64,000 nucleotides of DNA from an uncultured Candidatus Saccharibacteria bacterium (GCA_964490365.1 CAZBAG010000003.1:18116-82115); one strand, 5' to 3'. Positions 1,867 to 41,331 are shown, numbered from the stretch's first letter. Made by a program: numbers and translations. The notes: generated by a model not told the origin, from the letters alone.

Positions 1867-1937
1867 CGCGGGGTAGAGCAGTGGTAGCTCATCAGGCTCA
1901 TAACCTGAAGGCGGCCGTTCGAGTCGGCCCCCCGCAA
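1867..1937 (+). tRNA. Initiator tRNA-fMet (anticodon CAT)
   Basis: Manual fold: acceptor CGCGGGG/CCCCGCA with a C1-A72 mismatch (bacterial initiator hallmark). D-arm GAGC..GCTC, anticodon loop CTCATAA, T-arm GGCCG-TTCGAGT-CGGCC. CCA is not encoded. A hairpin plus T-run terminator follows at 1947-1976. Confidence 0.8.
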
Positions 1938-2023
1938 CATGTAAAACAAAAGCGTCCTCTGGGCGCTTTTGTTTTAGCTCACAAAGCTTGACTTTATTTA
2001 AAATATATAGTATATTAAAAGCC

Positions 2024-2365
2024 AACGAACTTTCAACCATTCCAAACCAAACACTGAATCGCCATGGGACACTCTGAAGAGAATGAAGCTCGCTATGTTG
2101 CTGAGACTGATATCAAAGCTGAAATGAGCAGAGCTGAGGGCGAGGATCCGTCATTCCTGCCCGGAGAACTGGACGGCGCGATAAAAGCGATATGCGGAGC
2201 ATCTGATCGAGCACCCTTGGAGGATGTTGCCACTGATCAGTTCAAAGGCTTTCCCTCGGGCGATCACATGATGGGTAAGCTTTTCGACCGTTGCGCAACA
2301 AGCGGGCACGCTGCATTCTATTGATGTTGGTGCGCTGATAAAGGACCTTCTCAAACCGAGAAGGT
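2024..2365 (+). other. GC-rich promoter-to-terminator transcription unit embedded in the tRNA cluster: candidate structured ncRNA or foreign small ORF (2064-2324, 86 aa)
   Basis: A near-consensus sigma70 promoter, TTGACT-17 nt-TATATT, sits at 1988-2016. A strong intrinsic terminator GGACCTTCTC-AAACC-GAGAAGGTCC plus T-run sits at 2341-2375. GC is about 50% against about 38% in the flanks. The 86-aa ORF is low-complexity and its codon usage is unlike the neighbours. Confidence 0.3.
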
Positions 2366-2420
2366 CCTTTGTGCTTTTTATCTTGAAAATTACTTCATTC
2401 TATGTTACTTTGTATCCATT

Positions 2421-2494
2421 GTCGGGGTAGCTCAGATGGTTAGAGCGTAGCACTCATAACGCTAAGGTCGTGGGTTCGACTCCCACCCTCGACA
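2421..2494 (+). tRNA. tRNA-Met (anticodon CAT; elongator type, could be lysidine tRNA-Ile2)
   Basis: Manual fold: acceptor GTCGGGG/CCTCGAC, D-arm GCTC-AGATGGTTA-GAGC, anticodon loop CTCATAA, T-arm GTGGG-TTCGACT-CCCAC. Confidence 0.75.
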
Positions 2495-2559
2495 CAATTT
2501 TCAAGCGTTGGCAAACGTATCTCTTTGTGATAAACTTGCGACGTTGGAAGTTAATATTT

Positions 2560-2633
2560 GCGGTCGTAGCTCAACTGGTTAGAGCACCCGCCTGTCACGT
2601 GGGAGGTTACGGGTTCAAGTCCCGCCGATCGCG
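2560..2633 (+). tRNA. tRNA-Asp (anticodon GTC)
   Basis: Manual fold: acceptor GCGGTCG/CGATCGC, D-arm GCTC-AACTGGTTA-GAGC, anticodon loop CTGTCAC, T-arm ACGGG-TTCAAGT-CCCGC. A terminator hairpin follows at 2641-2672. Confidence 0.8.
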
Positions 2634-2787
2634 CAAATTAAGAAAAGCCTGACATGTAAAGTCAGGTTTTTCTTATGGTAGGAGGGGAGTAATGTTTGGG
2701 AAACATTACGTTCGGGACTTGAAAACCTTTTGAGCTTAAAACTCCGCTTGTGAAGTTTTAACCAAAAGGTGTACTGAAGCTGTAAGC

Positions 2788-2814
2788 TTCAAGTCCTAGC
2801 AATCGCGCAAATAC
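2788..2814 (+). repeat. Direct repeat of the 3' end of tRNA-Asp (T-loop plus acceptor 3' strand), about 155 bp downstream of the gene
   Basis: TTCAAGTCCTAGCAATCGCGCAAAT matches the tRNA-Asp 3' end TTCAAGTCCCGCCGATCGCGCAAAT at 22 of 25 positions. Confidence 0.55.
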
Positions 2815-2863
2815 AAAAAGAGTCTTTGTAAAAAGGCTCTTTTTGTTTTAATATGTTCTCATT

Positions 2864-2936
2864 GCCGTTGTAGCTCAGTTGGTAGAGCACACCCATGGTA
2901 AGGGTGAGGTCTCGGGTTCGATTCCCGACAATGGCT
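2864..2936 (+). tRNA. tRNA-Thr (anticodon GGT)
   Basis: Manual fold: acceptor GCCGTTG/CAATGGC, D-arm GCTC-AGTTGGTA-GAGC, anticodon stem CACCC/GGGTG with loop ATGGTAA, T-arm TCGGG-TTCGATT-CCCGA. Confidence 0.8.
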
Positions 2937-9724: not shown

Positions 9725-9795
9725 TGCCAGATCGTCTAATGGTAGGACAACGGTTTCTGGTACCGTTTATCTTGGTTCGAGCCCAAGTCTGGCAG
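9725..9795 (+). tRNA. tRNA-Gln (anticodon CTG)
   Basis: Manual fold: acceptor TGCCAGA/TCTGGCA with U1-A72 as in bacterial tRNA-Gln. D-arm GTCT-AATGGTA-GGAC, anticodon stem ACGGT/ACCGT with loop TTCTGGT, T-arm CTTGG-TTCGAGC-CCAAG. Confidence 0.8.
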
Positions 9796-29780: not shown

Positions 29781-30716
29781 ATGAAGAACCTCACACTCCT
29801 TGTTGTGATGCTTCTGTCATTTCTCTCTGGAGACGTGGCACAAGCACAGAATTACGAAGTTCGTTGGATAGACCGCATTGGTTCTAACAACGTAACGGTT
29901 GTTGCGGACTACGATAGCTTCAATGATCCAGTCTACCGTCGAGTATATCGAAACAACAGCACTGTCTTCTATCAACCCATCTGGGTTGCAATTGCAGAAG
30001 ATGTGTTGACTGGAAATGGTGTCGATACCATTGTTCTCAGTACTGGCGGCGATCTCTTGATCAAGATCCTTGATCAGAACTACATTGAGATGGAAGAATT
30101 TACCCATCGATTCCAGGAATCTGTGATCGCTGTACCAACAATGACCGTGCATGATGCGATCTATGGACAAGCACCCATGGTGAGCTTCCGCACTGACATA
30201 CATGCACCATATGGTTTGGGTCGCCCCTCTCAATATGTAACAAAGTTGCACTGCGAGCTGGAACGCACAAGCCCGGCTGGATACATGCAAACGGTTACGT
30301 TCACTTACCCTGTCAACATTGCACCCATTGCACATTTCGAACTCCCATTCCAATTCTTCGGTGATTACTGCTTCAGGTGGTATATCACTGATGAGCATGT
30401 GAGTTTGAATGAAGTACATTTCGGTGAGATTGAAGTTTGGAGTTCTGATCTCTATTGCTTCTCATACGGAAGTACTGGATTCCAGAGTGAAGGACTCAAG
30501 GCCGAGTTTGGCTCATTCCCAAATCCGTTTACCGATATCGTGACGATCACGTCACCATCTGAAACGGAGTACCGGGTTTCGAATCTCTCTGGGCAAACAG
30601 TGGCTTTCGGAAAGCTCTTCGTCGGCGACAATCGTATCGACGCGCTCTCCGGACTCACTCCTGGTATGTACATTCTTGAAACCAGCCTTGGTTCTACCAA
30701 GCTGATCAAGCAATAA
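29781..30716 (+). CDS. Secreted protein with a type IX secretion system (T9SS) type-A C-terminal sorting domain
   Basis: Signal peptide MKNLTLLVVMLLSFLSGDVAQAQ. The C-terminal 65 aa, FPNPFTDIVTITSPSETEYRVSNLSGQTVAFGKLFVGDNRIDALSGLTPGMYILETSLGSTKLIKQ, follows the Por-secretion CTD pattern. The gene has higher GC than the flanks. A strong terminator follows at 30722-30766. Confidence 0.7.
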   Translation: MKNLTLLVVMLLSFLSGDVAQAQNYEVRWIDRIGSNNVTVVADYDSFNDPVYRRVYRNNSTVFYQPIWVAIAEDVLTGNGVDTIVLSTGGDLLIKILDQNYIEMEEFTHRFQESVIAVPTMTVHDAIYGQAPMVSFRTDIHAPYGLGRPSQYVTKLHCELERTSPAGYMQTVTFTYPVNIAPIAHFELPFQFFGDYCFRWYITDEHVSLNEVHFGEIEVWSSDLYCFSYGSTGFQSEGLKAEFGSFPNPFTDIVTITSPSETEYRVSNLSGQTVAFGKLFVGDNRIDALSGLTPGMYILETSLGSTKLIKQ

Positions 30717-31613: not shown

Positions 31614-31647
31614 TTCATCAGATCGAAGGCTTCGCCTTCGATCTTTT

Positions 31648-33207
31648 TTATAATCCAAGATTTCTTCGTATTTTTCGGATAGTAAGTGCTCTTGTTATGA
31701 TGATGATAAGTCCGATAATCAAGAGTGCTCCAAGCGCTATTATTTCTACTCCAAGAGAATCAATGATCGAATCAAAAGGAATGATACTATTGCTTTTTAT
31801 TTTCACTTCTACTGGCACAGACCACTCACTTTGAGCACCTCGTCCATCTGATACTCTAAATGATACAAATACTGTACCTTTTCTTAGGTCTTTTTGTTCA
31901 AACGTAAATTTACCACTGGCACTTTGGAATTCATCTTGGATGAGGAAATTGTTTTTCTTGCTGGTTAATTTTGCTTCGACATTACCATTCGGAATAGTTT
32001 CTCCTTTAATAATAAGTGTGTCCCCAACCATAATTTCCGCAGGGTATGAAGTTACTTTTGGTACTTCTAGAGCTTCTACGATAATAGGTAGGAACGTTTC
32101 ATTTTTATTACCAGCTCGGTCGTATGCCGTGATAACAAGCTCGTGTTCCCCTGGATTAATAGTTTCAAGTTTCAGATCACCAGACGGCAACGTTTCGTAA
32201 TCTAATTTTTCGTTGTTTATTGAAAGTTCAAAATTCTTTACACATGAAGTCGTGTCTTTCACGCTAAGAGAAATAACTGGTTTTGGATCGGTGAGATCTG
32301 ACCTCTTTATTTCCCGTGCCTCTATACTTGGCGGCGTGTGATCAATTTTGATCTTGAAATGTTCTGTTTCTGTCCATCCTGAGTTGTTTTGCAGAGACAA
32401 GTGGAAATACCATGTTCCATCTTCTACATTTTCATATCGTTTCTCTACAATTGCAGGACTGTTGATTGTTGTGGGTTCTGTTGTCGGATTTTTGTCAAAA
32501 GCTATCTTACTTGCAAGAATATCTTGGCCTATATCCCATGAAAAGGCGGCCGTGTTTTCTCTTCGCCAGACAACACCTGGGTGCGTGCTCGATGTAATAA
32601 TTGAATCTGCTTCACACACTTCTTCTTGTGTCACAATGGTTTCTTCTGAAGGTTTTAATTCTTCCAGATCAATGACTTCTGGTTCTTGCTTTGTAACTTC
32701 CGTGATCGTGAACGATGCATCACTGACACTTGTGAGAACATTGGTGCCGACACCATCATTTGCAAGAACTGAAGATGAAGCAATTTTCACTTGTGCAAGC
32801 CCAGTAGCTTTACCTTTAAATGTAACAGTAGCGAGTCTACCAGAAGCCCCCTTGTATCCTGGAGTTAGTACGACGCCCTCAAGTTTAATTTCTCCTGTAC
32901 TGTTTGAAAATGTCGGTTCTTGAGCCCAGAAGTCTACGATAGAACCGGTTTTTGAAATAGATACTACTTGAAGTGTAGTGGTAGGAAAGGTGATACGAAG
33001 AGCTGCGGCATTCATTGCTTGCTCTGTGCTCGATACGTTGATATTTACAGAGAAGTTGCTGTTTTGGGCATATGAACCACTCGACGGCGAAAGGTTAAGT
33101 GTTGCAGCGAACACCCCAAATGGATAGGTAAGTATTGTTATGGCGATAAAAATACCTAAGAAACCCGTTCTTTGATTTTTCTGAATTCTTTTGACTGTTT
33201 TCTCCAT
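31648..33207 (-). CDS. Cohesin-domain cell-surface protein with a C-terminal membrane anchor
   Basis: Probable start MEKTV at 33207. The N-terminal domain NSNFSVNINVSS...AALRITFPTTTLQVVSISKTGSIV...GRLATVTFKGKATGLAQVKI reads as a cohesin module. Ig-like repeats follow. The C-terminal transmembrane segment is IIALGALLIIGLIIIIT with a basic tail. Confidence 0.6.
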   Translation of the reverse strand: MEKTVKRIQKNQRTGFLGIFIAITILTYPFGVFAATLNLSPSSGSYAQNSNFSVNINVSSTEQAMNAAALRITFPTTTLQVVSISKTGSIVDFWAQEPTFSNSTGEIKLEGVVLTPGYKGASGRLATVTFKGKATGLAQVKIASSSVLANDGVGTNVLTSVSDASFTITEVTKQEPEVIDLEELKPSEETIVTQEEVCEADSIITSSTHPGVVWRRENTAAFSWDIGQDILASKIAFDKNPTTEPTTINSPAIVEKRYENVEDGTWYFHLSLQNNSGWTETEHFKIKIDHTPPSIEAREIKRSDLTDPKPVISLSVKDTTSCVKNFELSINNEKLDYETLPSGDLKLETINPGEHELVITAYDRAGNKNETFLPIIVEALEVPKVTSYPAEIMVGDTLIIKGETIPNGNVEAKLTSKKNNFLIQDEFQSASGKFTFEQKDLRKGTVFVSFRVSDGRGAQSEWSVPVEVKIKSNSIIPFDSIIDSLGVEIIALGALLIIGLIIIITRALTIRKIRRNLGL

Positions 33208-34049
33208 ATAACTAAGAAGAGTACAAAAATGAGCGCTAATGTTACGATAAGAATTTTTTGGTTTACACATTGTGCGCCAAAGCATGCGCTATTTGGAATA
33301 TCTACTCGAACTACTCGCTCATTTCCATAGTAGTCTTTTGCTTTAACATATATTTTCTCATTAATTTTTTGGTTTTTCAATATATATGGACTCTCTGCCT
33401 GTTCAAAAAGTTTTTTACCTTCTAACACAGAATAGCTTCGTATGCCAGAGCCCTTATCAATTGCTTCAAAGACAAGTACATACTTGTTATTTGCAATGGT
33501 TGGATCTTTTACTAACAGTGCGTCAAATTGTTCGGGTGGAGTAGTATCTGTCCATGTTAGTTTACTTGGTACTTCGCCGGGCAACAGGCTTCTTACTGGG
33601 ATTTCTTTGTCTTGTGTGTTCAGCGTCTCTTCTGTGCCAAGTCCATTATTTTTAAATATTGATATATTTTTCAGCTCGACAGGGAAGACGCCCGCTTCTT
33701 TTGGAACGATAACAAGTTCAAAAAGAGTACCACTGCCTTGTAATCCACCAGCAATAATTCCTGCAAATGAGATAGTGTTTGTTTTTGATTTGCTCGGATT
33801 TTCAATCCATGCAGAGATCACAGAATTCCTAGTGATGATCTGTATGATCTCAAAAGATGGATCAACAGAAAGTGTTCCGGATACAGCATTGTACGACTCC
33901 AATTCTGTTTGAAAGTTTATTTCGAGAAGTAACTCGTCTCCAACTTTTTGATTGGCAGGTCCAGAGTTTTTTTGCTGTAGCGTAAGAGAACCCGCCAAGG
34001 CTGTGTTGGTTGTGAGTAGAAAAATAAGAATGTAAATGAAATATTTCAT
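33156..34049 (-). CDS. Second cohesin-domain protein with a signal peptide and C-terminal membrane anchor
   Basis: VGDELLLEINFQTELESYNAVSGTLSVDPSFEIIQI...GSGTLFELVIVPKEAGVFPVELKNISIF follows the cohesin pattern. C-terminal transmembrane segment ILIVTLALIFVLFLVIW. Confidence 0.6.
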   Translation of the reverse strand: MKYFIYILIFLLTTNTALAGSLTLQQKNSGPANQKVGDELLLEINFQTELESYNAVSGTLSVDPSFEIIQIITRNSVISAWIENPSKSKTNTISFAGIIAGGLQGSGTLFELVIVPKEAGVFPVELKNISIFKNNGLGTEETLNTQDKEIPVRSLLPGEVPSKLTWTDTTPPEQFDALLVKDPTIANNKYVLVFEAIDKGSGIRSYSVLEGKKLFEQAESPYILKNQKINEKIYVKAKDYYGNERVVRVDIPNSACFGAQCVNQKILIVTLALIFVLFLVIWRKQSKEFRKIKERVS

Positions 34050-34055
34050 ATGTGA

Positions 34056-35090
34056 TTATCCTGTCCAATGGAAAGCAAGAATACTAAAATCAACCAAGTT
34101 TATTTTTCCATCACCGTTGAGGCATGAAGTTTCTTTGATAATAATTTCTCCAGATAATGGTTTGTTAAACCAAAAGGCTGCGATAGAGAAGTCGATCAAA
34201 TCGATTCGACTATCATCGTTGAGGTCTGCTGTGCAGGATGAGGCTCCTGGAACTTTGAGAATATTTTGATCTCCCACTTGAAAGGCAACTCGTTTTCCGA
34301 ATCCACTCGATTCTCCTGTGGTCAGGTTTGTTTTTGATCGACCGCTGTGTGAACCTTCTTCAAGTGGAGCAGAGTTAAAATTGTACAGATACACACCATC
34401 TTCATCTGATGTTGCGTTGACGAATACCTGTGTCTCTGAGTTTACTTCAATCGTAACGTTACTTTCTGGAACGGTCTGTCCAAAAATCACAATATCATCC
34501 CCTCTCTTTACTTCAGATTTATCAACATCGATAGTTGGCGAGAGAAAGATTCCCGTAACATCGGTGGTTGAACCCTGGGTGATAAATACAGGGAAGGAGA
34601 ATGGATTTGACTCCACATTATTTTCATCACGACTTTTAACGGTGAAGTTATAGTTTCCAGGATTGAGGTCAAGAAGGTTTACTCGGAAACGAGCGTCCGG
34701 GCCAGCAATTGTTTCAACTGCAATAACACCATCTTTTAAAATCGTGACTCTGGAAAGAGGGTAGGCACGACCAGAAAAGGTAACACCTGTGTCTGGCGGG
34801 CGTGATCCTCCACCACCTCCGCCTCCACCACCACTCGAAGAATTTGATTCGCTATCATCGGTATATGAAGAGCAACCTGGGTCGTTAGGAAAGTCTATGA
34901 GTGTATCAGAGTCATTGTCTTGCCCGTCGAAACATTGTGGGGCGGGAACGATTGTGATCGTAAAGTTCGATGTTTCATCAGATTGTAGTTGTGTCGCCTG
35001 TATAAAGAAAAAGTATACGAAGCCACCAACCAATAGAGTCGCTAGTAGATAGAGTAATTTTTTTGCTAAAACTGTCATATTAACTTGCAA
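34056..35090 (-). CDS. Dockerin-domain protein (N-terminal anchor, poly-Gly linker, Ig-like domain, C-terminal dockerin)
   Basis: Two calcium-binding dockerin repeats: DLNDDSRIDLIDFSIAAF and NGDGKINLVDFSILAF. A GGGGGGGGG linker is present. Confidence 0.65.
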   Translation of the reverse strand: MQVNMTVLAKKLLYLLATLLVGGFVYFFFIQATQLQSDETSNFTITIVPAPQCFDGQDNDSDTLIDFPNDPGCSSYTDDSESNSSSGGGGGGGGGSRPPDTGVTFSGRAYPLSRVTILKDGVIAVETIAGPDARFRVNLLDLNPGNYNFTVKSRDENNVESNPFSFPVFITQGSTTDVTGIFLSPTIDVDKSEVKRGDDIVIFGQTVPESNVTIEVNSETQVFVNATSDEDGVYLYNFNSAPLEEGSHSGRSKTNLTTGESSGFGKRVAFQVGDQNILKVPGASSCTADLNDDSRIDLIDFSIAAFWFNKPLSGEIIIKETSCLNGDGKINLVDFSILAFHWTG

Positions 35091-37467
35091 TGATTGAAAG
35101 TGTCATGTTAATAGAGTAACTATCAGCAGGTTGCTCAGCTGGAATTGTCTGAGATATTCCAATACCTGTAATATCCCAATAACAGTTTGTATCTGCACCA
35201 CTTGCTGCGCTCGCTAAGGTGATCGCATCTGTTACTCCTTCGCTATATGAACTACTACTTCCGCTAGAAATATTAGTGAGTGTACATCCACCTTCTGGAG
35301 TAATCGTGCTTGCCCCAGGGTTGAGTGTCATACGTCCACCGAGTGAATCCGCGTCACCACCATCTCCAGCGTTTGCTGTGGGGTCATTGAAATCATAGTC
35401 TGTGGTTCCATTCCAAAAAGCAGTTGCACCAGCGTCTGCAGCGAGTGATAGTGTCCATGTGGCTGTCCCTGTTCCATTATCAACTCTTACTTTCTGAGAA
35501 GTTGTTCCAAAAGTACCCGTGGCAGTTTGATGCACAAAAGATACGTTTGCCCCGTTCATGCCAACAGAAGGTGATCCAACCGTAGTGCCACCAGCATCAA
35601 CAATGTCGACAGACAAAGCTCCTCCTGCAGATGTTGTTATTTCAGGAATAACAGAATATGTATCAAGTAATGTTCCACCTGACTCTACAACTCGAAAACA
35701 ATACGAGGTGTTTGCGGGCGCACCATTATCGATAAGTGAAAAATCCCATTTTCCGTCTTGTCCGGTGTTAATTGTAGAGACGGAGTTAGTGAAGTTGTTT
35801 AATTCTTCGTAGTCTTGATTAACAATCGTGTCTGCGCTGTGTGTTGGATCATTTGCGTTTGAGGTAAGGTTGTCTCCATCAGTAGGAGATGCGTTATTGT
35901 TATATGCTATAGCGGTGGCGCCCGTTACATCTGCATAGGTTTCTCCAGAAAATCCAGTGTCACATGTTCCAGATTTTTGTGCAAACTGTAACTTAAAATT
36001 TTTACCACTTGTTGTTAGGTTTGCATTTGAAATATGAAGGAGGAGTCGTAATCGAAAAGCTCCACCAGTTACGCTGATGGTTCCTGCAGTATCTTGTGAT
36101 GCAAGAGCAGTTCCTACGTCAGTTGAGTCGTTGTTTGCAAAAAATCGATAGGCGGATTGTTCTGTAGCGCTCGCTGGTAGTGTAAACAGAAATGTCGTAG
36201 CGTTATATGTTACGTTACCCGTACCCGTCCCCCCAGCAGTAACAAGACTTCTAATGGCAATTGTGTCAGTACTCGTTATTGTGTCAGTGTTTGTCGTGTC
36301 TTGAAACCATCCTGTTGTACCCTGGAGATTGGTAATATCGTTATTTCCATTTGTACCACTAATACGCATACGGATACTCATATCTCGGTTAGATGCATTG
36401 GCAGATACATAGATACCAAACTTTGATACTTCCCCTACTGAACCGATAAACATTTTCTGTTGTGTTTCTGTTGATGTGTTTGTGCCCAAACCACCAATCG
36501 GCGATATCCATATAGATGATGCTGTTGAGGAACGAGTGAAAGCAGATGCACCTAAGAACGTTATTTGTTGTGGGTTATCTGAAACCAAAGTGATTTGAAA
36601 GTTTCTAATGTTAATATTTCCACCAGATCCAAGGGTGGAAAAAGAGAAGTTTACTAAATCACCCGCTGTTATTGAGTCAGTATTGCTCGTGTCTCGTAAA
36701 AGTCCCGAGACGCCGCTCCCAAATACGACCGACTGGTTTCCATTTCCAGCGTTTTTACGAAAACGAAACGTTGTGTTTGTTGTTCTGGCATTAGCGGAAA
36801 CATACGCTCCAAAGTTTGAAGCCACCGAACCATGATTAATCATATTTTGCACGATAGGCTCTGTTGTTGATGAAAGAAGGTTTCCAACAGGGTATGTGTA
36901 TCGTGTGGTATTGTTGGTTGCAAAACTCGCAAGAGCAGAAGCAGCCATCAAGAATTGTGTTGTACTTCCATCGCTTGCTTCAAAGAAAATTGTTACCGAG
37001 TTTAATGTAATAGTACCAGCTGTATAGGTGATTTGCATATTAATCAAATCACCCGCCGAAACACTATCAGAGTTTGTCGTATCTTGAAAAAGACCTGTTA
37101 GGGTTGAACCAATGGTGACAGTATTATTTCCATCTGCTCCATTTTTGCGAAACTTTACGGTTGTGTCTCCTGTTGCATTTGCCGCAGCAACAAGGACGGA
37201 TAGTCCTGTAAACGTACCAGCTTTCGGTACATAGAACTGAACCTCTGCTTCTGTTGCTGTTGCAGTGGCACGAGCATGTACAATAGGGTAGTAGTTAGCA
37301 CCTATCGTACTAGCCCCGTTAAATGATACGACATGAGGAACTTTGTATCCTCCTGTAGCCTTGACCTCTTTTGGAATTATAAGAAGAGGGTAAAATATTA
37401 ATACAATAGTTAAAAAAATAACTTGAATTTTTTTTAAAGAAAATAACTTTTTCAATTTAGTAGTCAT
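35080..37467 (-). CDS. Large Thr/Asn/Gly-rich surface protein with about 60-aa internal repeats and a C-terminal domain shared with the 39416-40117 protein
   Basis: N-terminal anchor. At least three repeats of the form (F/I)R(F/M)RKNG.(N/D)GN..V..G....GL(F/L).DT.N.D..(S/T)AGDL.N. The C-terminal 150 aa ends ...QTIPAEQPADSYSINMTLSIIAS. Confidence 0.6.
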   Translation of the reverse strand: MTTKLKKLFSLKKIQVIFLTIVLIFYPLLIIPKEVKATGGYKVPHVVSFNGASTIGANYYPIVHARATATATEAEVQFYVPKAGTFTGLSVLVAAANATGDTTVKFRKNGADGNNTVTIGSTLTGLFQDTTNSDSVSAGDLINMQITYTAGTITLNSVTIFFEASDGSTTQFLMAASALASFATNNTTRYTYPVGNLLSSTTEPIVQNMINHGSVASNFGAYVSANARTTNTTFRFRKNAGNGNQSVVFGSGVSGLLRDTSNTDSITAGDLVNFSFSTLGSGGNINIRNFQITLVSDNPQQITFLGASAFTRSSTASSIWISPIGGLGTNTSTETQQKMFIGSVGEVSKFGIYVSANASNRDMSIRMRISGTNGNNDITNLQGTTGWFQDTTNTDTITSTDTIAIRSLVTAGGTGTGNVTYNATTFLFTLPASATEQSAYRFFANNDSTDVGTALASQDTAGTISVTGGAFRLRLLLHISNANLTTSGKNFKLQFAQKSGTCDTGFSGETYADVTGATAIAYNNNASPTDGDNLTSNANDPTHSADTIVNQDYEELNNFTNSVSTINTGQDGKWDFSLIDNGAPANTSYCFRVVESGGTLLDTYSVIPEITTSAGGALSVDIVDAGGTTVGSPSVGMNGANVSFVHQTATGTFGTTSQKVRVDNGTGTATWTLSLAADAGATAFWNGTTDYDFNDPTANAGDGGDADSLGGRMTLNPGASTITPEGGCTLTNISSGSSSSYSEGVTDAITLASAASGADTNCYWDITGIGISQTIPAEQPADSYSINMTLSIIAS

Positions 37468-38159
37468 TAGTTAACAATGTTTATTTGACAGATTGCAGTA
37501 GAGGTTTTTTCTGGATTTTTTAAAGTATATAGAATTGGTATGTTAAAAGAACCTTGTTGTGCACCATTTTGCTTGGACACCAAAACCAATACAGAAGATT
37601 CTTTCTGTTCAATTGTTTTTGTGTATGATCCAGTAGCAACTATTTTTACATTAATACCATCTGGGAGACTTCCAATTTCTAAGTTCTCAACACCTGGCTG
37701 GTTTGCCTTGGTAAGCATAATACTCACTTGCGTTGTACCGTTTCCAAGATCTGTAGAAAAGTCAGAAAGTGTGCATGAGTGTGTTGCGTTCGGATCAATA
37801 ACTATTTTTCTTGTAACTTGTCTTTCAGATAGATTTGGTATTGTAGCTGGTCGCCAAATAACCTTAGGTTCTTCTATAATTGGCTCAACAATAGCATCTC
37901 CCAGGGCCTCAAGTTCTCTATCTGTCGGTAATTCCTCAACCCCTTCGTTGGTTGACTCAGGTTGACTTTCGTCTGTGTTACTAGAAGTTTCAACACTATT
38001 TTCTATCTGTTCTCTTGGCACAAGAATTTCAGAAGATGGTTCATTCTCTGAAGTCTCAACCTCGTTATTTGGCACTTCTTGAGAATATGAAATATGCGTT
38101 GTCAGTATGAACATTGTCACTATACCTATTTTAAACAAGTGATTTTTCATGTTATGCAT
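37467..38159 (-). CDS. Secreted acidic protein, hypothetical
   Basis: Signal peptide and a Glu/Ser-rich linker. No family was recognised. Confidence 0.45.
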   Translation of the reverse strand: MHNMKNHLFKIGIVTMFILTTHISYSQEVPNNEVETSENEPSSEILVPREQIENSVETSSNTDESQPESTNEGVEELPTDRELEALGDAIVEPIIEEPKVIWRPATIPNLSERQVTRKIVIDPNATHSCTLSDFSTDLGNGTTQVSIMLTKANQPGVENLEIGSLPDGINVKIVATGSYTKTIEQKESSVLVLVSKQNGAQQGSFNIPILYTLKNPEKTSTAICQINIVN

Positions 38160-38190
38160 AGTATATCAATAATAATAAACGAAAATATAG

Positions 38191-39387
38191 TTATTTTTGA
38201 GGGGAATTGGGCGTATTTTTTCTTGGTGGTAACTTAATGATCTGACCATTATTAATACTGTACGGTGGACGTATATTATTTACCTCTGCAATAATTTCCC
38301 AATGTACTTTGTATTTTTTTGACAAGCTTTCCAGAGTATCGTTTTTCTCTACTCGATAGGTTGTCCATTTTTGTATCCATTTTTTCTTTTTCTTATGCAA
38401 TCTCCAGAGTGCAAATATGCAAATAAGTCCGAGCAGGATTACAATTTCTGAAATGAGCCCAAGGAGTGTTGGGGCAGATACAAACCATTTCGTTGCAGAT
38501 TTTACTTGTACAAGCTGACTACCACTTTTCACACCAATACTTGCACCAGAGTCTTCGTCATATTCAAATGTTGCTTTCGCAAAATAAAGCCCTCCCCAAA
38601 ATGGTTTTTTGAGTTCAAAGTTAAAATCGTACACTTCGTCGCGAAGGACAGGAAATTCTCCACCAAATTTCTCATGTGAAAGGCCAAAGAAATATCTGAC
38701 ATTGATTATTACATTGGTGTCGATAGATACATTACCAGTGTTTTTGACAGATGGCTTTAAATAGACAGATTTATTCTTCTTTTCAATACTAAAATCGTTG
38801 AATTCCAGTTTTCGAATCACCTCTCCCGGAACACTAATCGCCACTCGTACACCACTACGCAGGCTGAGTGACACCCCAACATCATCAGATGTTTTTTCTT
38901 TTATTTCTTGTATAAGTACGCAACCGTTATGTTCTCCAACGGAAGCTTGTGCTGGAACTTTTATACTAAAAGGTATGAGAATTTCTGTTCCCGCAGGAAT
39001 AGTGAGTTCGACAGTACTAGGGATACTGCCATTTTTTACTGTTTCAATGTCTTCTTCAAGATCTTGAATGTTAAATTGTATCCAATTTCCAACACCTACT
39101 GGTTCTTCTGATATTTGTGTACAAGCAAAACCGCCACCACTTGAGCGTAGTGAGTCTCTCGCATACAAAAGCAGGTTTTTAGGAGTATTAGTGCTATTAA
39201 TAACTTTTACACCTTCACCTACAGATTCACCAGGCTTGATGGTTTGAACAAAAATAGATTCAGTGCGAGGATTATCCGCTCTTGGATATGCTGGCTTTAC
39301 TCCAAAACTTACTGCCGAGCTCGTGCTAGGAAAAAAGATAACAAAGAAAAAAGTAAGGAAAGAAATCCTTAAAAAGGTGGATATCAT
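38191..39387 (-). CDS. Cell-surface protein with a signal peptide, an approximately 300-aa ectodomain, a transmembrane anchor, a KKKKK stop-transfer and a C-terminal LysM domain (DUF916/DUF3324-like architecture)
   Basis: Ectodomain start FGVKPAYPRADNPRTESIFVQTIKPGESVGEGVKVINSTNTPKN. Transmembrane segment LLGLISEIVILLGLICIFALW. LysM-like segment YRVEKNDTLESLSKKYKVHWEIIAEVNNIRPPYSINNGQIIKLP. Confidence 0.5.
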   Translation of the reverse strand: MISTFLRISFLTFFFVIFFPSTSSAVSFGVKPAYPRADNPRTESIFVQTIKPGESVGEGVKVINSTNTPKNLLLYARDSLRSSGGGFACTQISEEPVGVGNWIQFNIQDLEEDIETVKNGSIPSTVELTIPAGTEILIPFSIKVPAQASVGEHNGCVLIQEIKEKTSDDVGVSLSLRSGVRVAISVPGEVIRKLEFNDFSIEKKNKSVYLKPSVKNTGNVSIDTNVIINVRYFFGLSHEKFGGEFPVLRDEVYDFNFELKKPFWGGLYFAKATFEYDEDSGASIGVKSGSQLVQVKSATKWFVSAPTLLGLISEIVILLGLICIFALWRLHKKKKKWIQKWTTYRVEKNDTLESLSKKYKVHWEIIAEVNNIRPPYSINNGQIIKLPPRKNTPNSPQK

Positions 39388-39415
39388 ACTTTATAGTATA
39401 TCAAATAAACTTATT

Positions 39416-40117
39416 TTAAGAAGCGAGAATCGACAGTGTCATGTTGATGTCGTAGTCGTTTGCAGCTGGTTGTTCTGCTGGGATTGTTTGAGCAATATCA
39501 ATGTCTTGTACCGTCCAATCTCCCACGTCGTTTGCTCCTGCCGCCGCCGTTACAAGAGTAATTGAATCAGTGGTTCCTTGATTGAATGCGTTTGAAGATC
39601 CAAGAGTTACGTTTGATGTGGTACATGTGTCACACGCTCCAACCGTGAGCGTTCCCCCAGAAGCATCAACCGTCATTTGTCCACCAAGTGAATCTGCATC
39701 GCCGCCGTCGGTACATCCAGCTGATGTTGGATCGTTAAAATCGAAATCAGTACCCGCTGAATCCCAAACCGCTGTTGGGCCAGATGCTGCCAAAGATACG
39801 GTAAAACCGTTATCAGCGGCGTCAGGGTTTTGAATATAAATTTGTTGACTTGTAGTACCAAATGTACCGTTTGTTGTTTGACACGAAAAGCTAAAAGCAG
39901 TTGAACCGAGTGCTACGGAAGGGGAGCCAACGGTAACGTAACTTGCATTGGTGATATCTACAGAAAGGGTTCCCGCCGTAATTGTTTGTTGGAAATTTGA
40001 AGTACTTGCCGCCAGAACAATACCTGTTACGGTGAGAGAAAAGAGAAAAATAAATCCTACTACTAATAGTTTAGAAAACGGGATTCTTGAAATAAAAAAT
40101 GTACCTAGTTTTTCCAT
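39416..40117 (-). CDS. Small surface protein paralogous to the C-terminal domain of the 795-aa protein
   Basis: The conserved blocks GTFGTTSQ, DFDFNDPT, DGGDADSLGG and the tail QTIPAEQPAANDYDINMTLSILAS align with the C-terminus of the 35080-37467 protein. Confidence 0.6.
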   Translation of the reverse strand: MEKLGTFFISRIPFSKLLVVGFIFLFSLTVTGIVLAASTSNFQQTITAGTLSVDITNASYVTVGSPSVALGSTAFSFSCQTTNGTFGTTSQQIYIQNPDAADNGFTVSLAASGPTAVWDSAGTDFDFNDPTSAGCTDGGDADSLGGQMTVDASGGTLTVGACDTCTTSNVTLGSSNAFNQGTTDSITLVTAAAGANDVGDWTVQDIDIAQTIPAEQPAANDYDINMTLSILAS

Positions 40118-40209: not shown

Positions 40210-41331
40210 ATGATGGTTGTAATGTTGAAAAATCTCGTTACTGGAAAAATAGAGAAGGTAAAAATATTTTCACAAAAATATAAGGTGTATGTTATGCCAG
40301 TGGTCCTTATCATTGGTTTTTTAATTGACTTTATTACTTTGCGACGGGTTGATGGCCTGTTTGATAATATTCTGCTTTCTAGTCATATTTTTATTGTGGG
40401 TCTATCAATCACACTACTCTTTTCGAAGGACACCGCACTCGGTGCACGGCTAAGAATTTTGCAACATGCTCAGAAGATAGAGTATCTCATGCTTTTTTCT
40501 TTTGGTGCGCTTTTTTCTGGTTCGATTATTTTCTTTTCTAAAAGTGCTTCATTATCAGCATCGTGGCCATTTTTTCTCTTACTCCTTATTCTTATGCTAG
40601 GGACTGAGTTTCAAAAGAAATATTTCCAAAGATTGATTTTCCAAATCAATTTTTACTATGTTGCGTTGTTCTCATATTTGATTGTACTTGTGCCGGTGCT
40701 CAAGCGAGATATGGGTCCAGATATTTTTGTGGCAAGCGGTATCTTGAGTTTAATTTTGATTGGCCTTTTCTTTCTGTTTCTTGGAGCAATTGATCATAAA
40801 AAGATGAAGCTCTATGCTCGAAAAATGATTTCCGGCATTCTGGCTATTTTCGTGTTTTTTAATTTCTTATATTTTGCAAATATTATTCCACCTATTCCAC
40901 TTTCGCTGAAGTTTACGGGTGTCTATCATTCGGTATATCGAGTGTCGGCAAATAATTATGTCGGAACATACGAGGGAGCGCCACCAGTATATTTTTGGAA
41001 AAAACGAAGCACTACAGTTCATCGAGATCCAAATGGCTCGGTCTATGTGTTTAGTTCAGTGTTTGCTCCAACAAATTTAGATACAAATATTTACCACCAG
41101 TGGCAATATTTTGATCCAGTAAAAAAAGAATGGATTGATTCAACAAAGATTAAACTGGGAGTTTCGGGAGGTAGGGAAGAAGGTTTCCGGGGATATTCGT
41201 TTAAGAGAAGTCTAACGAATGGTGTATGGCGAGTGATTGTTGAAACAGAGCGAGGACAAAAACTTGGTCAGATTAAGTTTGAGATTGCACCCAAACAAGG
41301 AGATATTATTCTAAAAGAAGAATTACTGTAA
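40210..41331 (+). CDS. Polytopic membrane protein with a C-terminal soluble domain, hypothetical
   Basis: A 373-aa protein with about seven N-terminal transmembrane segments. A terminator follows at 41340-41375. Confidence 0.45.
   Translation: MMVVMLKNLVTGKIEKVKIFSQKYKVYVMPVVLIIGFLIDFITLRRVDGLFDNILLSSHIFIVGLSITLLFSKDTALGARLRILQHAQKIEYLMLFSFGALFSGSIIFFSKSASLSASWPFFLLLLILMLGTEFQKKYFQRLIFQINFYYVALFSYLIVLVPVLKRDMGPDIFVASGILSLILIGLFFLFLGAIDHKKMKLYARKMISGILAIFVFFNFLYFANIIPPIPLSLKFTGVYHSVYRVSANNYVGTYEGAPPVYFWKKRSTTVHRDPNGSVYVFSSVFAPTNLDTNIYHQWQYFDPVKKEWIDSTKIKLGVSGGREEGFRGYSFKRSLTNGVWRVIVETERGQKLGQIKFEIAPKQGDIILKEELL

What the first reader, a model, noticed from the sequence alone, without database searches (positions are those of the whole stretch)
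35080..40117. Four-gene surface cluster: repeat-rich 795-aa protein and small paralogue sharing a C-terminal domain, plus a LysM-tailed DUF916-like anchor protein
The 795-aa and 233-aa proteins share a roughly 150-aa C-terminal domain (GTFGTTSQ…DFDFNDPT…DGGDADSLGG…QTIPAEQPA..Y.INMTLSI.AS). Between them lie a secreted acidic protein and a 398-aa protein. The 398-aa protein has a signal peptide, an ectodomain beginning FGVKP.YPR.DNP, a transmembrane segment, a KKKKK stretch and a LysM. This recalls the DUF916/DUF3324 cell-surface proteins that partner WxL-domain proteins in Firmicutes Csc clusters. The shared domain has conserved W and DFNDP but is not a canonical WxL domain by eye. The analogy is only architectural. 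A sortase is encoded 5 kb away.
Basis: inference. Interest (0 to 1): 0.5.

Follow-up and report, generated by a model that had tools for sequence, protein, structure and literature searches.

The report
WxL-like surface cluster in Patescibacteria
This is a tightly packed operon from an ultra-small (CPR/Patescibacteria) bacterium that looks like a divergent, so far undescribed version of the WxL/DUF916 cell-surface display clusters of lactic acid bacteria, and it is a plausible candidate for how these episymbionts stick to other cells.

Summary
Four minus-strand ORFs lie at the stated coordinates. The 795-aa and 233-aa proteins share a C-terminal domain of about 190 aa (52% identity, E=1e-47).

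The 398-aa protein is a LysM-tailed homologue of the Firmicutes WxL-interacting protein (WxLIP/DUF916):
- Pfam PF06030 scores just below threshold here and matches 39/40 relatives.
- hhalign against Firmicutes WxLIP gives 95% probability.
- The family profile matches solved EfmWxLIP1 at 6e-7.

The shared domain matches no Pfam family. It aligns collinearly with genuine WxL domains only weakly (hhalign P from 5.5e-5 to 7e-3; score 30 against 16.6±1.6 for shuffles). It keeps the first GW-x-L block and the terminal "IPA…Y…[ML]T[WL]S[LI]" block. It lacks the second Trp, and fold searches did not return the solved WxL chain.

Gene order (small, WxLIP, large), the C-terminal position of the domain, an acidic small protein, a basic anchor and variable lectin-like heads all match WxL/Csc clusters.

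The unit is larger than reported. Three downstream genes (one dockerin-bearing, two cohesin-like) are co-conserved across many Patescibacteria lineages. The sortase is unrelated.

Verdict: a new, CPR-wide variant of a known kind. The function is inferred, not shown.

The parts
39416..40117 (-). Small protein, 233 aa. [quoted passage not shown] Mature pI is 4.05, with no Lys or Arg and 4 conserved Cys.
   Evidence: The family has 836 hits, all from Patescibacteria, with no Pfam domain. The AF2 model is an all-beta fold, pLDDT 74.
38191..39387 (-). Membrane anchor, 398 aa, basic (pI 9.05). It comprises a signal peptide, a WxLIP_PGBD/DUF916-like domain (aa 28-160, nt 38908-39306), a second beta domain (aa ~188-300), a TM helix (aa ~304-327, nt 38407-38478), a KKKKK stretch, and a LysM domain (aa 344-387, nt 38227-38358).
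   Evidence: Pfam results. hhalign against Firmicutes WxLIP gives 95.1% probability, E=3.3e-8. The family profile matches solved EfmWxLIP1 (9i25_C, 9i1y_A) at E=6e-7.
37467..38159 (-). Secreted acidic 230-aa protein. It has an acidic low-complexity N-terminal half and a C-terminal beta-rich domain of about 120 aa with 2 Cys. It is a lineage-restricted accessory gene sitting between the anchor gene and the large-protein gene.
   Evidence: Homologues at this position occur only in close relatives and in a group of loci whose ORFs are intact only when UGA is read as a sense codon (translation table 25). The only Pfam hit is sub-threshold (Myco_19_kDa, E=0.002).
35080..37467 (-). Large protein, 795 aa. 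It comprises a signal peptide, three ~130-aa repeats (aa 41-435, nt 36163-37347), a conserved ~180-aa module (aa 436-612, nt 35632-36162), and the shared WxL-like C-terminal domain (aa 613-795, nt 35083-35631) carrying a true W-T-L at aa 671-673.
   Evidence: In the AF2 model aa 430-795 have pLDDT of about 90, and the repeats are below 50.
34056..35090 (-). 344-aa protein with an N-terminal membrane anchor, an acidic Cys-rich repeat, a Gly run, Big_6 Ig-like domains and a C-terminal type I dockerin. It overlaps the stop of the 795-aa gene and is co-conserved with the cluster.
   Evidence: Pfam Big_6 E=3.7e-8; Dockerin_1 scores 22.9 bits, equal to the cut-off. A homologue lies next to the large gene in 29 of 44 loci with enough sequence.
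33156..34049 (-). 297-aa protein with a signal peptide, a cohesin-like N-terminal domain and a C-terminal TM anchor.
   Evidence: It shares its N-terminal domain with the 545-aa protein (phmmer 1e-6). Two of 10 homologues hit Cohesin PF00963 below threshold (E=6e-4 and 2e-3, nearly full length of the profile).
31648..33285 (-). 545-aa protein with the same cohesin-like N-terminal domain, a Big_13 Ig-like domain and a C-terminal TM anchor. It is the last gene of the unit.
   Evidence: It is co-conserved downstream in many loci.
31620..31644 (.). GC-rich 11-bp-stem palindrome between the end of the 545-aa gene and the convergent upstream gene. It is the likely terminator closing the seven-gene unit.
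   Evidence: This is a pattern match only.

Best explanation
The region 31648-40117 is a seven-gene operon of a Patescibacteria (CPR) bacterium. Its core is a divergent counterpart of the Firmicutes WxL/Csc surface-display cluster.

Proposed mechanism:
1. The small acidic protein (233 aa) and the large protein (795 aa) are exported by Sec.
2. Both end in the same beta-sandwich domain of about 190 aa. This domain is the handle by which they are held at the cell surface.
3. The basic 398-aa protein is the holder. Its DUF916/PGBD-type ectodomain binds that handle, probably by adding a beta-strand to it as in the Enterococcus WxLIP-WxL complex. Its TM helix fixes the assembly in the cell's own membrane.
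4. The N-terminal part of the large protein points outward and binds a ligand. Here it is three repeats plus a conserved module. In other lineages it is H-type lectin, LamG, DUF2341 or BNR modules. Given the episymbiotic lifestyle of the group, the most likely ligand is a surface glycan of a host cell.
5. The co-transcribed dockerin protein and the two membrane-anchored cohesin-like proteins form a second tethering pair in the same assembly.

Shown by sequence: the domain sharing, WxLIP-PGBD homology, LysM, gene order, conservation across lineages, and variability of the heads.

Inferred: homology of the shared domain to WxL, the handle-holder contact, the ligand, and any role in host attachment.
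For: - Shared domain: 52% identity, E=1e-47. It lies within 3 aa of the C-terminus in 146 of 150 family representatives.
- Anchor protein: PF06030 matches 39/40 family members, best E=6.6e-9. hhalign against four Firmicutes WxLIP gives 95.1% probability, E=3.3e-8 over 173 columns. The family profile matches solved EfmWxLIP1 at E=6e-7.
- Gene order: Firmicutes loci show the same order, small WxL then WxLIP then large lectin-WxL. Among 75 Patescibacteria loci, 51 carry small, anchor and large together. The anchor is adjacent to the small gene in 56 of 67 loci with enough sequence.
- Shared domain against 32 genuine PF13731 proteins: hhalign P=5.5e-5 (50 C-terminal columns). With a 136-sequence profile, P=8e-4 to 4e-3 over 137 collinear columns covering the GW-x-L block and the terminal L-x-[VI]-P-A...Y...[LM]-T-[WL]-[ST]-[LI] block.
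- Controls: score 30.2 against 16.6 (sd 1.6, max 19.8) for 40 block-shuffles, and against 11-18 for five unrelated secreted families.
- A Firmicutes WxL HMM places shared-domain ORFs at 16 of its top 20 hits among 1909 ORFs.
- Motif geometry: the first motif sits at residue 105 and the last at 228 of 233. In a genuine WxL protein (P0391) the positions are 103 and 216 of 222. This agrees with the figures given in PMC9772566.
- Charge pattern: acidic small protein (pI 4.05) and basic anchor (pI 9.05), as reported for L. plantarum clusters.
- Large proteins of the family carry variable lectin-like N-termini.
Against: - No PF13731 hit in 40 small or 33 large family members.
- The second Trp-x-Leu motif is absent. 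The 233-aa protein has Phe in place of the first Trp.
- hhalign probabilities are only 5-66%, and the result depends on how the alignments are trimmed.
- The second ectodomain of the anchor shows no DUF3324 signal (P=0.26; 0/40).
- By the positive-inside rule the LysM lies on the cytoplasmic side of the TM helix. This does not fit simple peptidoglycan anchoring.
- There are no expression, localisation or binding data.
Confidence: 0.62

Rival explanations
1. Convergent architecture. Only the DUF916-type anchor is related to the Firmicutes system. The shared domain is an unrelated, Patescibacteria-specific beta-sandwich that happens to be carried by one small and one large protein. The cluster may still display proteins on the surface, but it is not a WxL system in the evolutionary sense.
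For: - No PF13731 hit.
- The second Trp is missing.
- hhalign probability is modest.
- The small and large copies here share one domain type, whereas Firmicutes small and large WxL domains are reported to differ in topology.
Against: - The similarity is collinear over 137 columns and covers both motif blocks. It exceeds all 40 block-shuffles and five control families.
- The motif positions match a genuine small WxL protein.
- The partner protein is a true WxLIP homologue and sits in the same gene order.
Confidence: 0.2
2. Surface fibre built by donor-strand exchange. The small protein polymerises as the major subunit. The large protein is a tip adhesin that carries the same pilin-like domain at its C-terminus, as FimH does relative to FimA. 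The two-domain 398-aa protein acts as a membrane-bound chaperone or base.
For: - The pairing of a subunit-only protein with an adhesin-plus-subunit protein mirrors chaperone-usher pili.
- Published AlphaFold models have a WxLIP strand completing the WxL sandwich.
- The small protein is 50-80% identical across lineages labelled as different candidate phyla. That fits a structural subunit.
Against: - All fold scores are in the range of generic beta-sandwich matches. No Foldseek hit has E of 0.001 or below.
- No usher, dedicated signal peptidase or polymerising sortase is encoded in the cluster.
- The camelysin/TasA family is hit by 1 of 40 members, at E=0.05 only.
- No multimer prediction could be run.
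Confidence: 0.1
3. Envelope-lattice (S-layer-like) components. The small protein is an abundant, conserved surface-lattice subunit tethered by the LysM/DUF916 protein. The large protein and the cohesin/dockerin proteins are decorations.
For: - Conservation of the small protein is very high.
- The small and large proteins are acidic and rich in Ser, Thr, Asn, Gly and Ala (55%).
- An Asp-rich D-x-D-x-N-D-P...D-G-x-D-A-D motif resembles calcium-binding sites (this reading is inference).
Against: - No S-layer homology or other S-layer family hit.
- A mature size of 20 kDa is small for a lattice protein.
- The variable large paralogue fits an adhesin better than a lattice component.
Confidence: 0.05

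Closest known systems
WxL / Csc cell-surface clusters of Lactobacillales, Listeria and Enterococcus (small WxL = CscB, large WxL = CscC, DUF916 protein = CscA/WxLIP, LPxTG protein = CscD)
   Same: - A small protein whose mature form is only the domain, and a large protein carrying the same domain at its C-terminus behind variable lectin/adhesin modules.
- A DUF916-type single-pass membrane protein encoded between them, in the same gene order.
- An acidic small protein and a basic anchor.
- Weak collinear sequence similarity covering both motif blocks.
   Different: - No PF13731 match, and the second Trp-x-Leu motif is replaced by [ML]-T-L-S-I.
- The small and large copies share one domain type.
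- No LPxTG protein.
- The anchor has a LysM after its TM helix and no detectable DUF3324.
- Three co-conserved dockerin/cohesin-like genes follow.
- The host organisms are Patescibacteria. WxL is reported as over 91% Firmicutes.
WxL-interacting protein EfmWxLIP1 of Enterococcus faecium (PDB 9i1y; complex with a WxL domain protein in 9i25)
   Same: - The N-terminal PGBD/DUF916 domain is homologous (E=6e-7 to the solved chain; hhalign 95%).
- A conserved N-terminal motif sits at the equivalent place: DNPRTESIF here against NQ...YFDL in Firmicutes.
- A second beta domain and then a C-terminal TM helix with a basic tail follow.
   Different: - The second domain is not recognisable as DUF3324/HBD. 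Thirteen of 40 relatives give weak fn3_5 hits instead.
- A LysM domain of about 60 aa follows the basic stop-transfer stretch in 54 of 60 full-length Patescibacteria homologues.
Chaperone-usher pili (FimA/FimH, Csu) and other donor-strand fibres
   Same: - A subunit-only protein paired with an adhesin carrying a C-terminal subunit-like domain.
- The best, though weak, fold matches of the small-protein model are FimA and CsuA/B.
   Different: - No usher and no periplasmic chaperone.
- A monoderm-type organism.
- Fold scores are not significant.
Cohesin-dockerin tethering systems
   Same: The 344-aa protein ends in a type I dockerin that scores exactly at the Pfam cut-off. The two following membrane-anchored proteins share an N-terminal domain that is cohesin-like in some homologues.
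   Different: - No carbohydrate-active enzyme is attached.
- The window's own 297-aa and 545-aa proteins give no Cohesin hit.

Membership tests
WxL domain (Pfam PF13731) | Match to the PF13731 profile | tested here: not met
   No hit at E<=10 in 40 small-family members, and none at E<=0.01 in 33 large proteins.
WxL domain (Pfam PF13731) | Two Trp-x-Leu motifs on adjacent strands | tested here: not met
   First motif: G-W-T-[VL] in most family members, WTL in the 795-aa protein, and F-T-V in the 233-aa protein. Second motif: replaced by [ML]-T-L-S-[IV], with no Trp.
WxL domain (Pfam PF13731) | Domain located at the extreme C-terminus; present in one small and one large protein of the same cluster | tested here: met
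   The domain lies within 3 aa of the C-terminus in 146 of 150 representatives. A small and large pair occurs in 51 of 75 loci.
WxL domain (Pfam PF13731) | Detectable remote homology to genuine WxL domains (profile-profile) | tested here: inconclusive
   hhalign P ranges from 5.5e-5 to 7e-3 and probability from 5% to 66%, depending on the alignments. The score exceeds block-shuffles (z about 8.5) and five control families.
WxL domain (Pfam PF13731) | Same fold as the solved WxL domain (PDB 9i25 chain A) | tested here: inconclusive
WxL domain (Pfam PF13731) | Non-covalent binding to peptidoglycan | not testable with these tools
   This needs a binding assay.
WxLIP (DUF916 + DUF3324 + TM helix) | PGBD / DUF916 domain (PF06030) | tested here: met
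   This protein scores 23.1 bits against a cut-off of 27.3 while covering positions 1-120 of the 121-position profile. 39 of 40 relatives match, best E=6.6e-9. hhalign gives 95.1%. The family profile matches solved EfmWxLIP1 at E=6e-7.
WxLIP (DUF916 + DUF3324 + TM helix) | HBD / DUF3324 domain (PF11797) | tested here: not met
   0 of 40 relatives match at E<=0.1. hhalign of the second domain alone gives P=0.26.
WxLIP (DUF916 + DUF3324 + TM helix) | C-terminal transmembrane helix after the two ectodomains | tested here: met
   A hydrophobic segment spans aa 301-333 and is followed by KKKKK. It is conserved across the family.
WxLIP (DUF916 + DUF3324 + TM helix) | Binds the WxL domain by inserting a beta-strand | not testable with these tools
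   Only single-chain prediction was available. The published model is quoted.
WxL gene cluster as defined by Hassan et al. [quoted passage not shown] | One WxLIP plus two proteins carrying the partner domain, all adjacent | tested here: inconclusive
   The architecture is met. Membership depends on accepting the shared domain as a WxL domain.
LysM (PF01476) | Match to the LysM profile above the cut-off | tested here: met
   E=5.5e-11, 42.7 bits against a cut-off of 20.9, full profile length. 40 of 40 relatives match.
Sortase-anchored (LPxTG) surface proteins | C-terminal LPxTG-type motif followed by a TM helix and a basic tail | tested here: not met
   None of the seven proteins has such a motif near the C-terminus.
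TasA / camelysin (PF12389) fibre proteins | Match to the family profile | tested here: not met
   1 of 40 members matches, at E=0.05. There is no PDB sequence hit.
Cohesin-dockerin pair | A dockerin domain and a cohesin domain in neighbouring proteins | tested here: inconclusive
   Dockerin_1 scores exactly at the cut-off (22.9 bits) in the 344-aa protein. Cohesin is hit only below threshold, in 2 of 10 homologues of the 297-aa protein.

The most novel reading that the evidence does not exclude
The operon encodes a conserved, so far unrecognised host-attachment organelle of Patescibacteria. The invariant small subunit and a lineage-variable lectin-headed subunit would be assembled on a DUF916-type membrane base by beta-strand complementation. 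The base would be coupled to the cell interior through a cytoplasmic LysM domain and to a cohesin-dockerin tether outside. This would be a monoderm analogue of adhesive pili, and the element that determines which hosts these episymbionts can bind.
Probability: 0.15. Interest if true: 0.85.

Novelty: new variant of a known kind. Interest (0 to 1): 0.58.

Why it matters
WxL/WxLIP clusters are described as essentially a Firmicutes feature, mostly of gut commensals (PMC9772566). Here a recognisable but strongly diverged version is spread over many Patescibacteria lineages. At least 710 clusters at 50% identity carry the domain. The small and large proteins belong to no Pfam family and are annotated only as hypothetical.

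How ultra-small episymbionts recognise and hold on to host cells is an open question. Tn-seq in a cultivated Saccharibacterium found several surface adhesins, including a dockerin protein, to be essential (PMC10633639). A conserved anchor with lineage-variable lectin-like heads is the kind of module expected to set host range. It can be tested by localisation, binding and knock-out wherever a cultivable member carries it.

It also gives the WxL field a distant outgroup. That outgroup shows which residues of the domain and of the WxLIP PGBD are truly constrained.

Tried and rejected
- **Pfam and NCBIfam scans.** Scans of the shared domain in 40 small and 33 large proteins gave no family.
- **PDB sequence searches.** A search with the shared-domain profile found nothing at E<=10 except chance TbpB hits. 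The 297-aa protein found nothing.
- **Exhaustive HMM search.** It listed only strong family members, so the weak tail where Firmicutes WxL proteins might sit could not be seen.
- **DUF3324.** Neither hhalign of the second ectodomain alone (P=0.26) nor Pfam detects it.
- **N-terminal repeats of the 795-aa protein.** Too few homologues exist, and AF2 confidence is below 50, so their fold is unknown.
- **Sortase link.** Rejected, because there is no LPxTG-type signal in any cluster protein, and the sortase is not next to the cluster in the related loci examined.
- **TasA/SipW idea.** It was prompted by the N-terminal 'SNFxQTIxAGTLxVDI' motif. It was rejected for lack of profile or fold support. 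The same G-x-L-x-[LV]-D strand also occurs in genuine WxL proteins.
- **Literature.** No paper in the library connects Patescibacteria with WxL or DUF916.
- **Method note.** The genuine WxL set was obtained by seeding a search with OCR-damaged CscB fragments from a 2006 supplement. Only the retrieved database proteins, all carrying PF13731, were used afterwards.

Full report
**Observation**

| ORF | Coordinates |
|---|---|
| 233 aa | 39416-40117 |
| 398 aa | 38191-39387 |
| 230 aa | 37467-38159 |
| 795 aa | 35080-37467 |

- BLASTP of the 795-aa protein against the 233-aa protein gives 52% identity over aa 616-795 vs 49-233, E=1e-47. The shared C-terminal domain is real and about 190 aa long.
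- The 795-aa protein carries three repeats of about 130 aa (aa 41-435). Smith-Waterman z-scores are 14-19 against shuffles.
- The 230-aa protein has a leader and is acidic, pI 4.3.
- The 398-aa protein has a leader, an ectodomain, a hydrophobic segment at aa 301-333, a KKKKK stretch and a LysM domain, Pfam E=5.5e-11.

**Source and distribution**

- Identical proteins sit on a 380-kb NCBI contig and in several Logan assemblies.
- All named relatives are Patescibacteria/CPR: Paceibacterota, Kerfeld-, Falkow-, Peregrini-, Gracili-, Dojka-, Doudna-, Colwell-, Andersen- and Azambacteria, and Microgenomates.
- The small protein is unusually conserved, 50-80% identical across these lineages.
- An exhaustive profile search finds 710 cluster representatives at E<=0.001. 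The domain lies within 3 residues of the C-terminus in 146 of the best 150.
- There is only one copy of the cluster in the window.

**The 398-aa protein**

- Pfam PF06030 (WxLIP_PGBD, formerly DUF916) covers positions 1-120 of the 121-position profile at 23.1 bits, just under the 27.3-bit cut-off.
- 39 of 40 family members match it, best E=6.6e-9, and all 40 have LysM. NCBI already names some of them DUF916 proteins.
- I fetched Firmicutes loci to obtain genuine WxLIP proteins carrying PF06030 and PF11797. hhalign of the Patescibacteria family against four of them gives 95.1% probability, E=3.3e-8 over 173 columns.
- The family profile also matches the solved chains called EfmWxLIP1 (PDB 9i1y, 9i25) at E=6e-7.
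- The family-invariant stretch DNPRTESIF aligns with the conserved NQ...YFDL motif of Firmicutes PGBD domains.
- The second ectodomain gives no DUF3324 signal: 0 of 40 in Pfam, and hhalign P=0.26.

The protein is therefore a true WxLIP-PGBD homologue with a TM helix in the expected place, an unassigned second domain, and an added LysM.

**The shared domain**

- It matches no Pfam or NCBIfam family.
- To test the WxL idea I needed real WxL sequences. I seeded a search with CscB fragments transcribed from a supplement of Siezen et al. 2006 (PMC1534035). This retrieved 106 database proteins, all carrying PF13731.
- hhalign of the 40-sequence Patescibacteria alignment against 32 of these gives P=5.5e-5, probability 66%, over the last 50 columns.
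- A broader 136-sequence profile gives a collinear 137-column alignment at P=8e-4 to 4e-3. It pairs 'IYV.NPDAADNGWTVSLAA' with 'V.D.RG...GW.L.V'. It pairs 'ISQTIPAEQPAASDYDINMTLSI' with 'L.VP.......Y.ATLTWTL'.
- The score of 30.2 exceeds 40 block-shuffled controls (16.6, sd 1.6, max 19.8). It also exceeds five unrelated secreted families (11-18).
- A Firmicutes WxL HMM ranks shared-domain ORFs 16 times in its top 20 among 1909 ORFs. These ORFs are homologues of one another and so are not independent.
- Motif positions (105 and 228 of 233) match a genuine small WxL protein (103 and 216 of 222).

Against this:
- The second Trp is missing.
- The 233-aa protein has Phe for the first Trp.

I rate homology to WxL as probable (about 0.6), not established.

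**Context**

- Firmicutes clusters read small WxL, then WxLIP, then large lectin-WxL. The Patescibacteria loci read small, then anchor, then large.
- Of 75 Patescibacteria loci, 74 have a small gene and 66 have an anchor. Of 60 full-length anchors, 54 have LysM. All three genes occur together in 51 loci.
- The mature small protein is acidic (pI 4.05) and has no Lys or Arg. The anchor is basic, pI 9.05. This is the pattern reported for L. plantarum clusters.
- Large proteins of the family carry interchangeable N-terminal modules, including H-type lectin, LamG, DUF2341, BNR and a beta-propeller.
- A conserved ~180-aa module directly precedes the shared domain in many of them. AF2 models aa 430-795 of the 795-aa protein at pLDDT of about 90.

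**The unit is larger than four genes**

- The 344-aa gene overlaps the stop of the 795-aa gene. The 297-aa and 545-aa genes follow with a 6-nt gap and then an overlap. A GC-rich palindrome closes the unit at 31620-31644.
- Homologues of these three genes follow the large gene in many lineages. The dockerin-type gene is adjacent in 29 of 44 loci with enough sequence, and 22 loci have both dockerin-type and cohesin-like genes.
- The 344-aa protein has Big_6 domains and a type I dockerin at the Pfam cut-off.
- The other two proteins share an N-terminal domain that is cohesin-like below threshold in 2 of 10 homologues, and each ends in a TM anchor.

**Other points**

- The 230-aa gene is present only in close relatives and in one group of lineages. 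In that group the ORFs are intact only when UGA is read as a sense codon.
- No cluster protein has an LPxTG-type signal, so the class F sortase 5 kb away is not linked.

**Mechanism**

The best-supported reading is a membrane-anchored display complex. The DUF916-type ectodomain holds the shared domain of the small and large proteins. A WxLIP strand completes the WxL sandwich in published models, and a crystal complex is deposited as 9i25. The variable head of the large protein would bind a ligand, plausibly a host-surface glycan. All binding steps are inferred.

One feature does not fit the Firmicutes model. The LysM follows the TM helix and a poly-Lys stop-transfer stretch, so it is predicted to be cytoplasmic.

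**Rivals**

- Convergent architecture with an unrelated domain.
- A donor-strand fibre. The best fold matches are FimA-type pilins, but they are not significant.
- An S-layer-like lattice.

**Novelty**

No paper in the library links Patescibacteria with WxL or DUF916. The small and large proteins are unannotated. I class the finding as a new variant of a known kind.

Noticed in passing
window 38227-38478 (aa 304-387 of the 398-aa protein): The LysM domain lies C-terminal to the TM helix and a KKKKK stop-transfer stretch. By the positive-inside rule it should face the cytoplasm, where there is no assembled peptidoglycan. The arrangement is conserved in 54 of 60 full-length homologues.
   Followed up: partly
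window 31648-35090: Three genes (a dockerin-bearing Big_6 protein and two membrane-anchored proteins with a shared cohesin-like N-terminal domain) are co-transcribed and co-conserved with the four reported genes across many Patescibacteria lineages.
   Followed up: partly
window 39419-40009 (mature 233-aa protein): The mature small protein has no Lys or Arg at all (pI 4.05) and four family-conserved Cys. It carries an invariant Asp-rich stretch, D-F-D-F-N-D-P...D-G-G-D-A-D-S, that resembles calcium-binding loops. In the large paralogue the Cys pattern differs.
   Followed up: no
loci L018, L022, L027, L028, L033, L051: In a group of related loci the cluster genes are intact only if UGA is read as a sense codon (translation table 25). 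The gene order there is rearranged (anchor, acidic protein, large, then one to three small genes), and the small gene is duplicated.
   Followed up: partly
window 29781-30716 (+): The 311-aa ORF here is recorded with a Por_Secre_tail (type IX secretion C-terminal sorting) domain in the gene table of the identical contig. This is unexpected in a monoderm-type Patescibacterium.
   Followed up: no
window 40210-41331 (+): A multi-pass membrane protein with a C-terminal DUF2914 domain is divergently transcribed from the cluster. It keeps this position only in the closest relatives (L003-L008, L012).
   Followed up: no
window 1867-2936 and 9725-9795: There is a cluster of four tRNA genes within about 1.1 kb, plus a fifth tRNA.
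   Followed up: no
loci L006-L080 (record titles): Many MAG records that carry this Patescibacteria-type cluster are titled 'uncultured Gammaproteobacteria', 'Christensenellaceae', 'Alphaproteobacteria' or 'Saccharibacteria'. These titles are probably unreliable taxonomic labels or reflect contaminated bins.
   Followed up: no
PDB 9i25 / 9i1y: A solved complex of a 'WxL domain surface protein' with 'EfmWxLIP1' is in the PDB sequence file. No paper describing it is in the searchable library, and it did not surface in the fold searches.
   Followed up: partly
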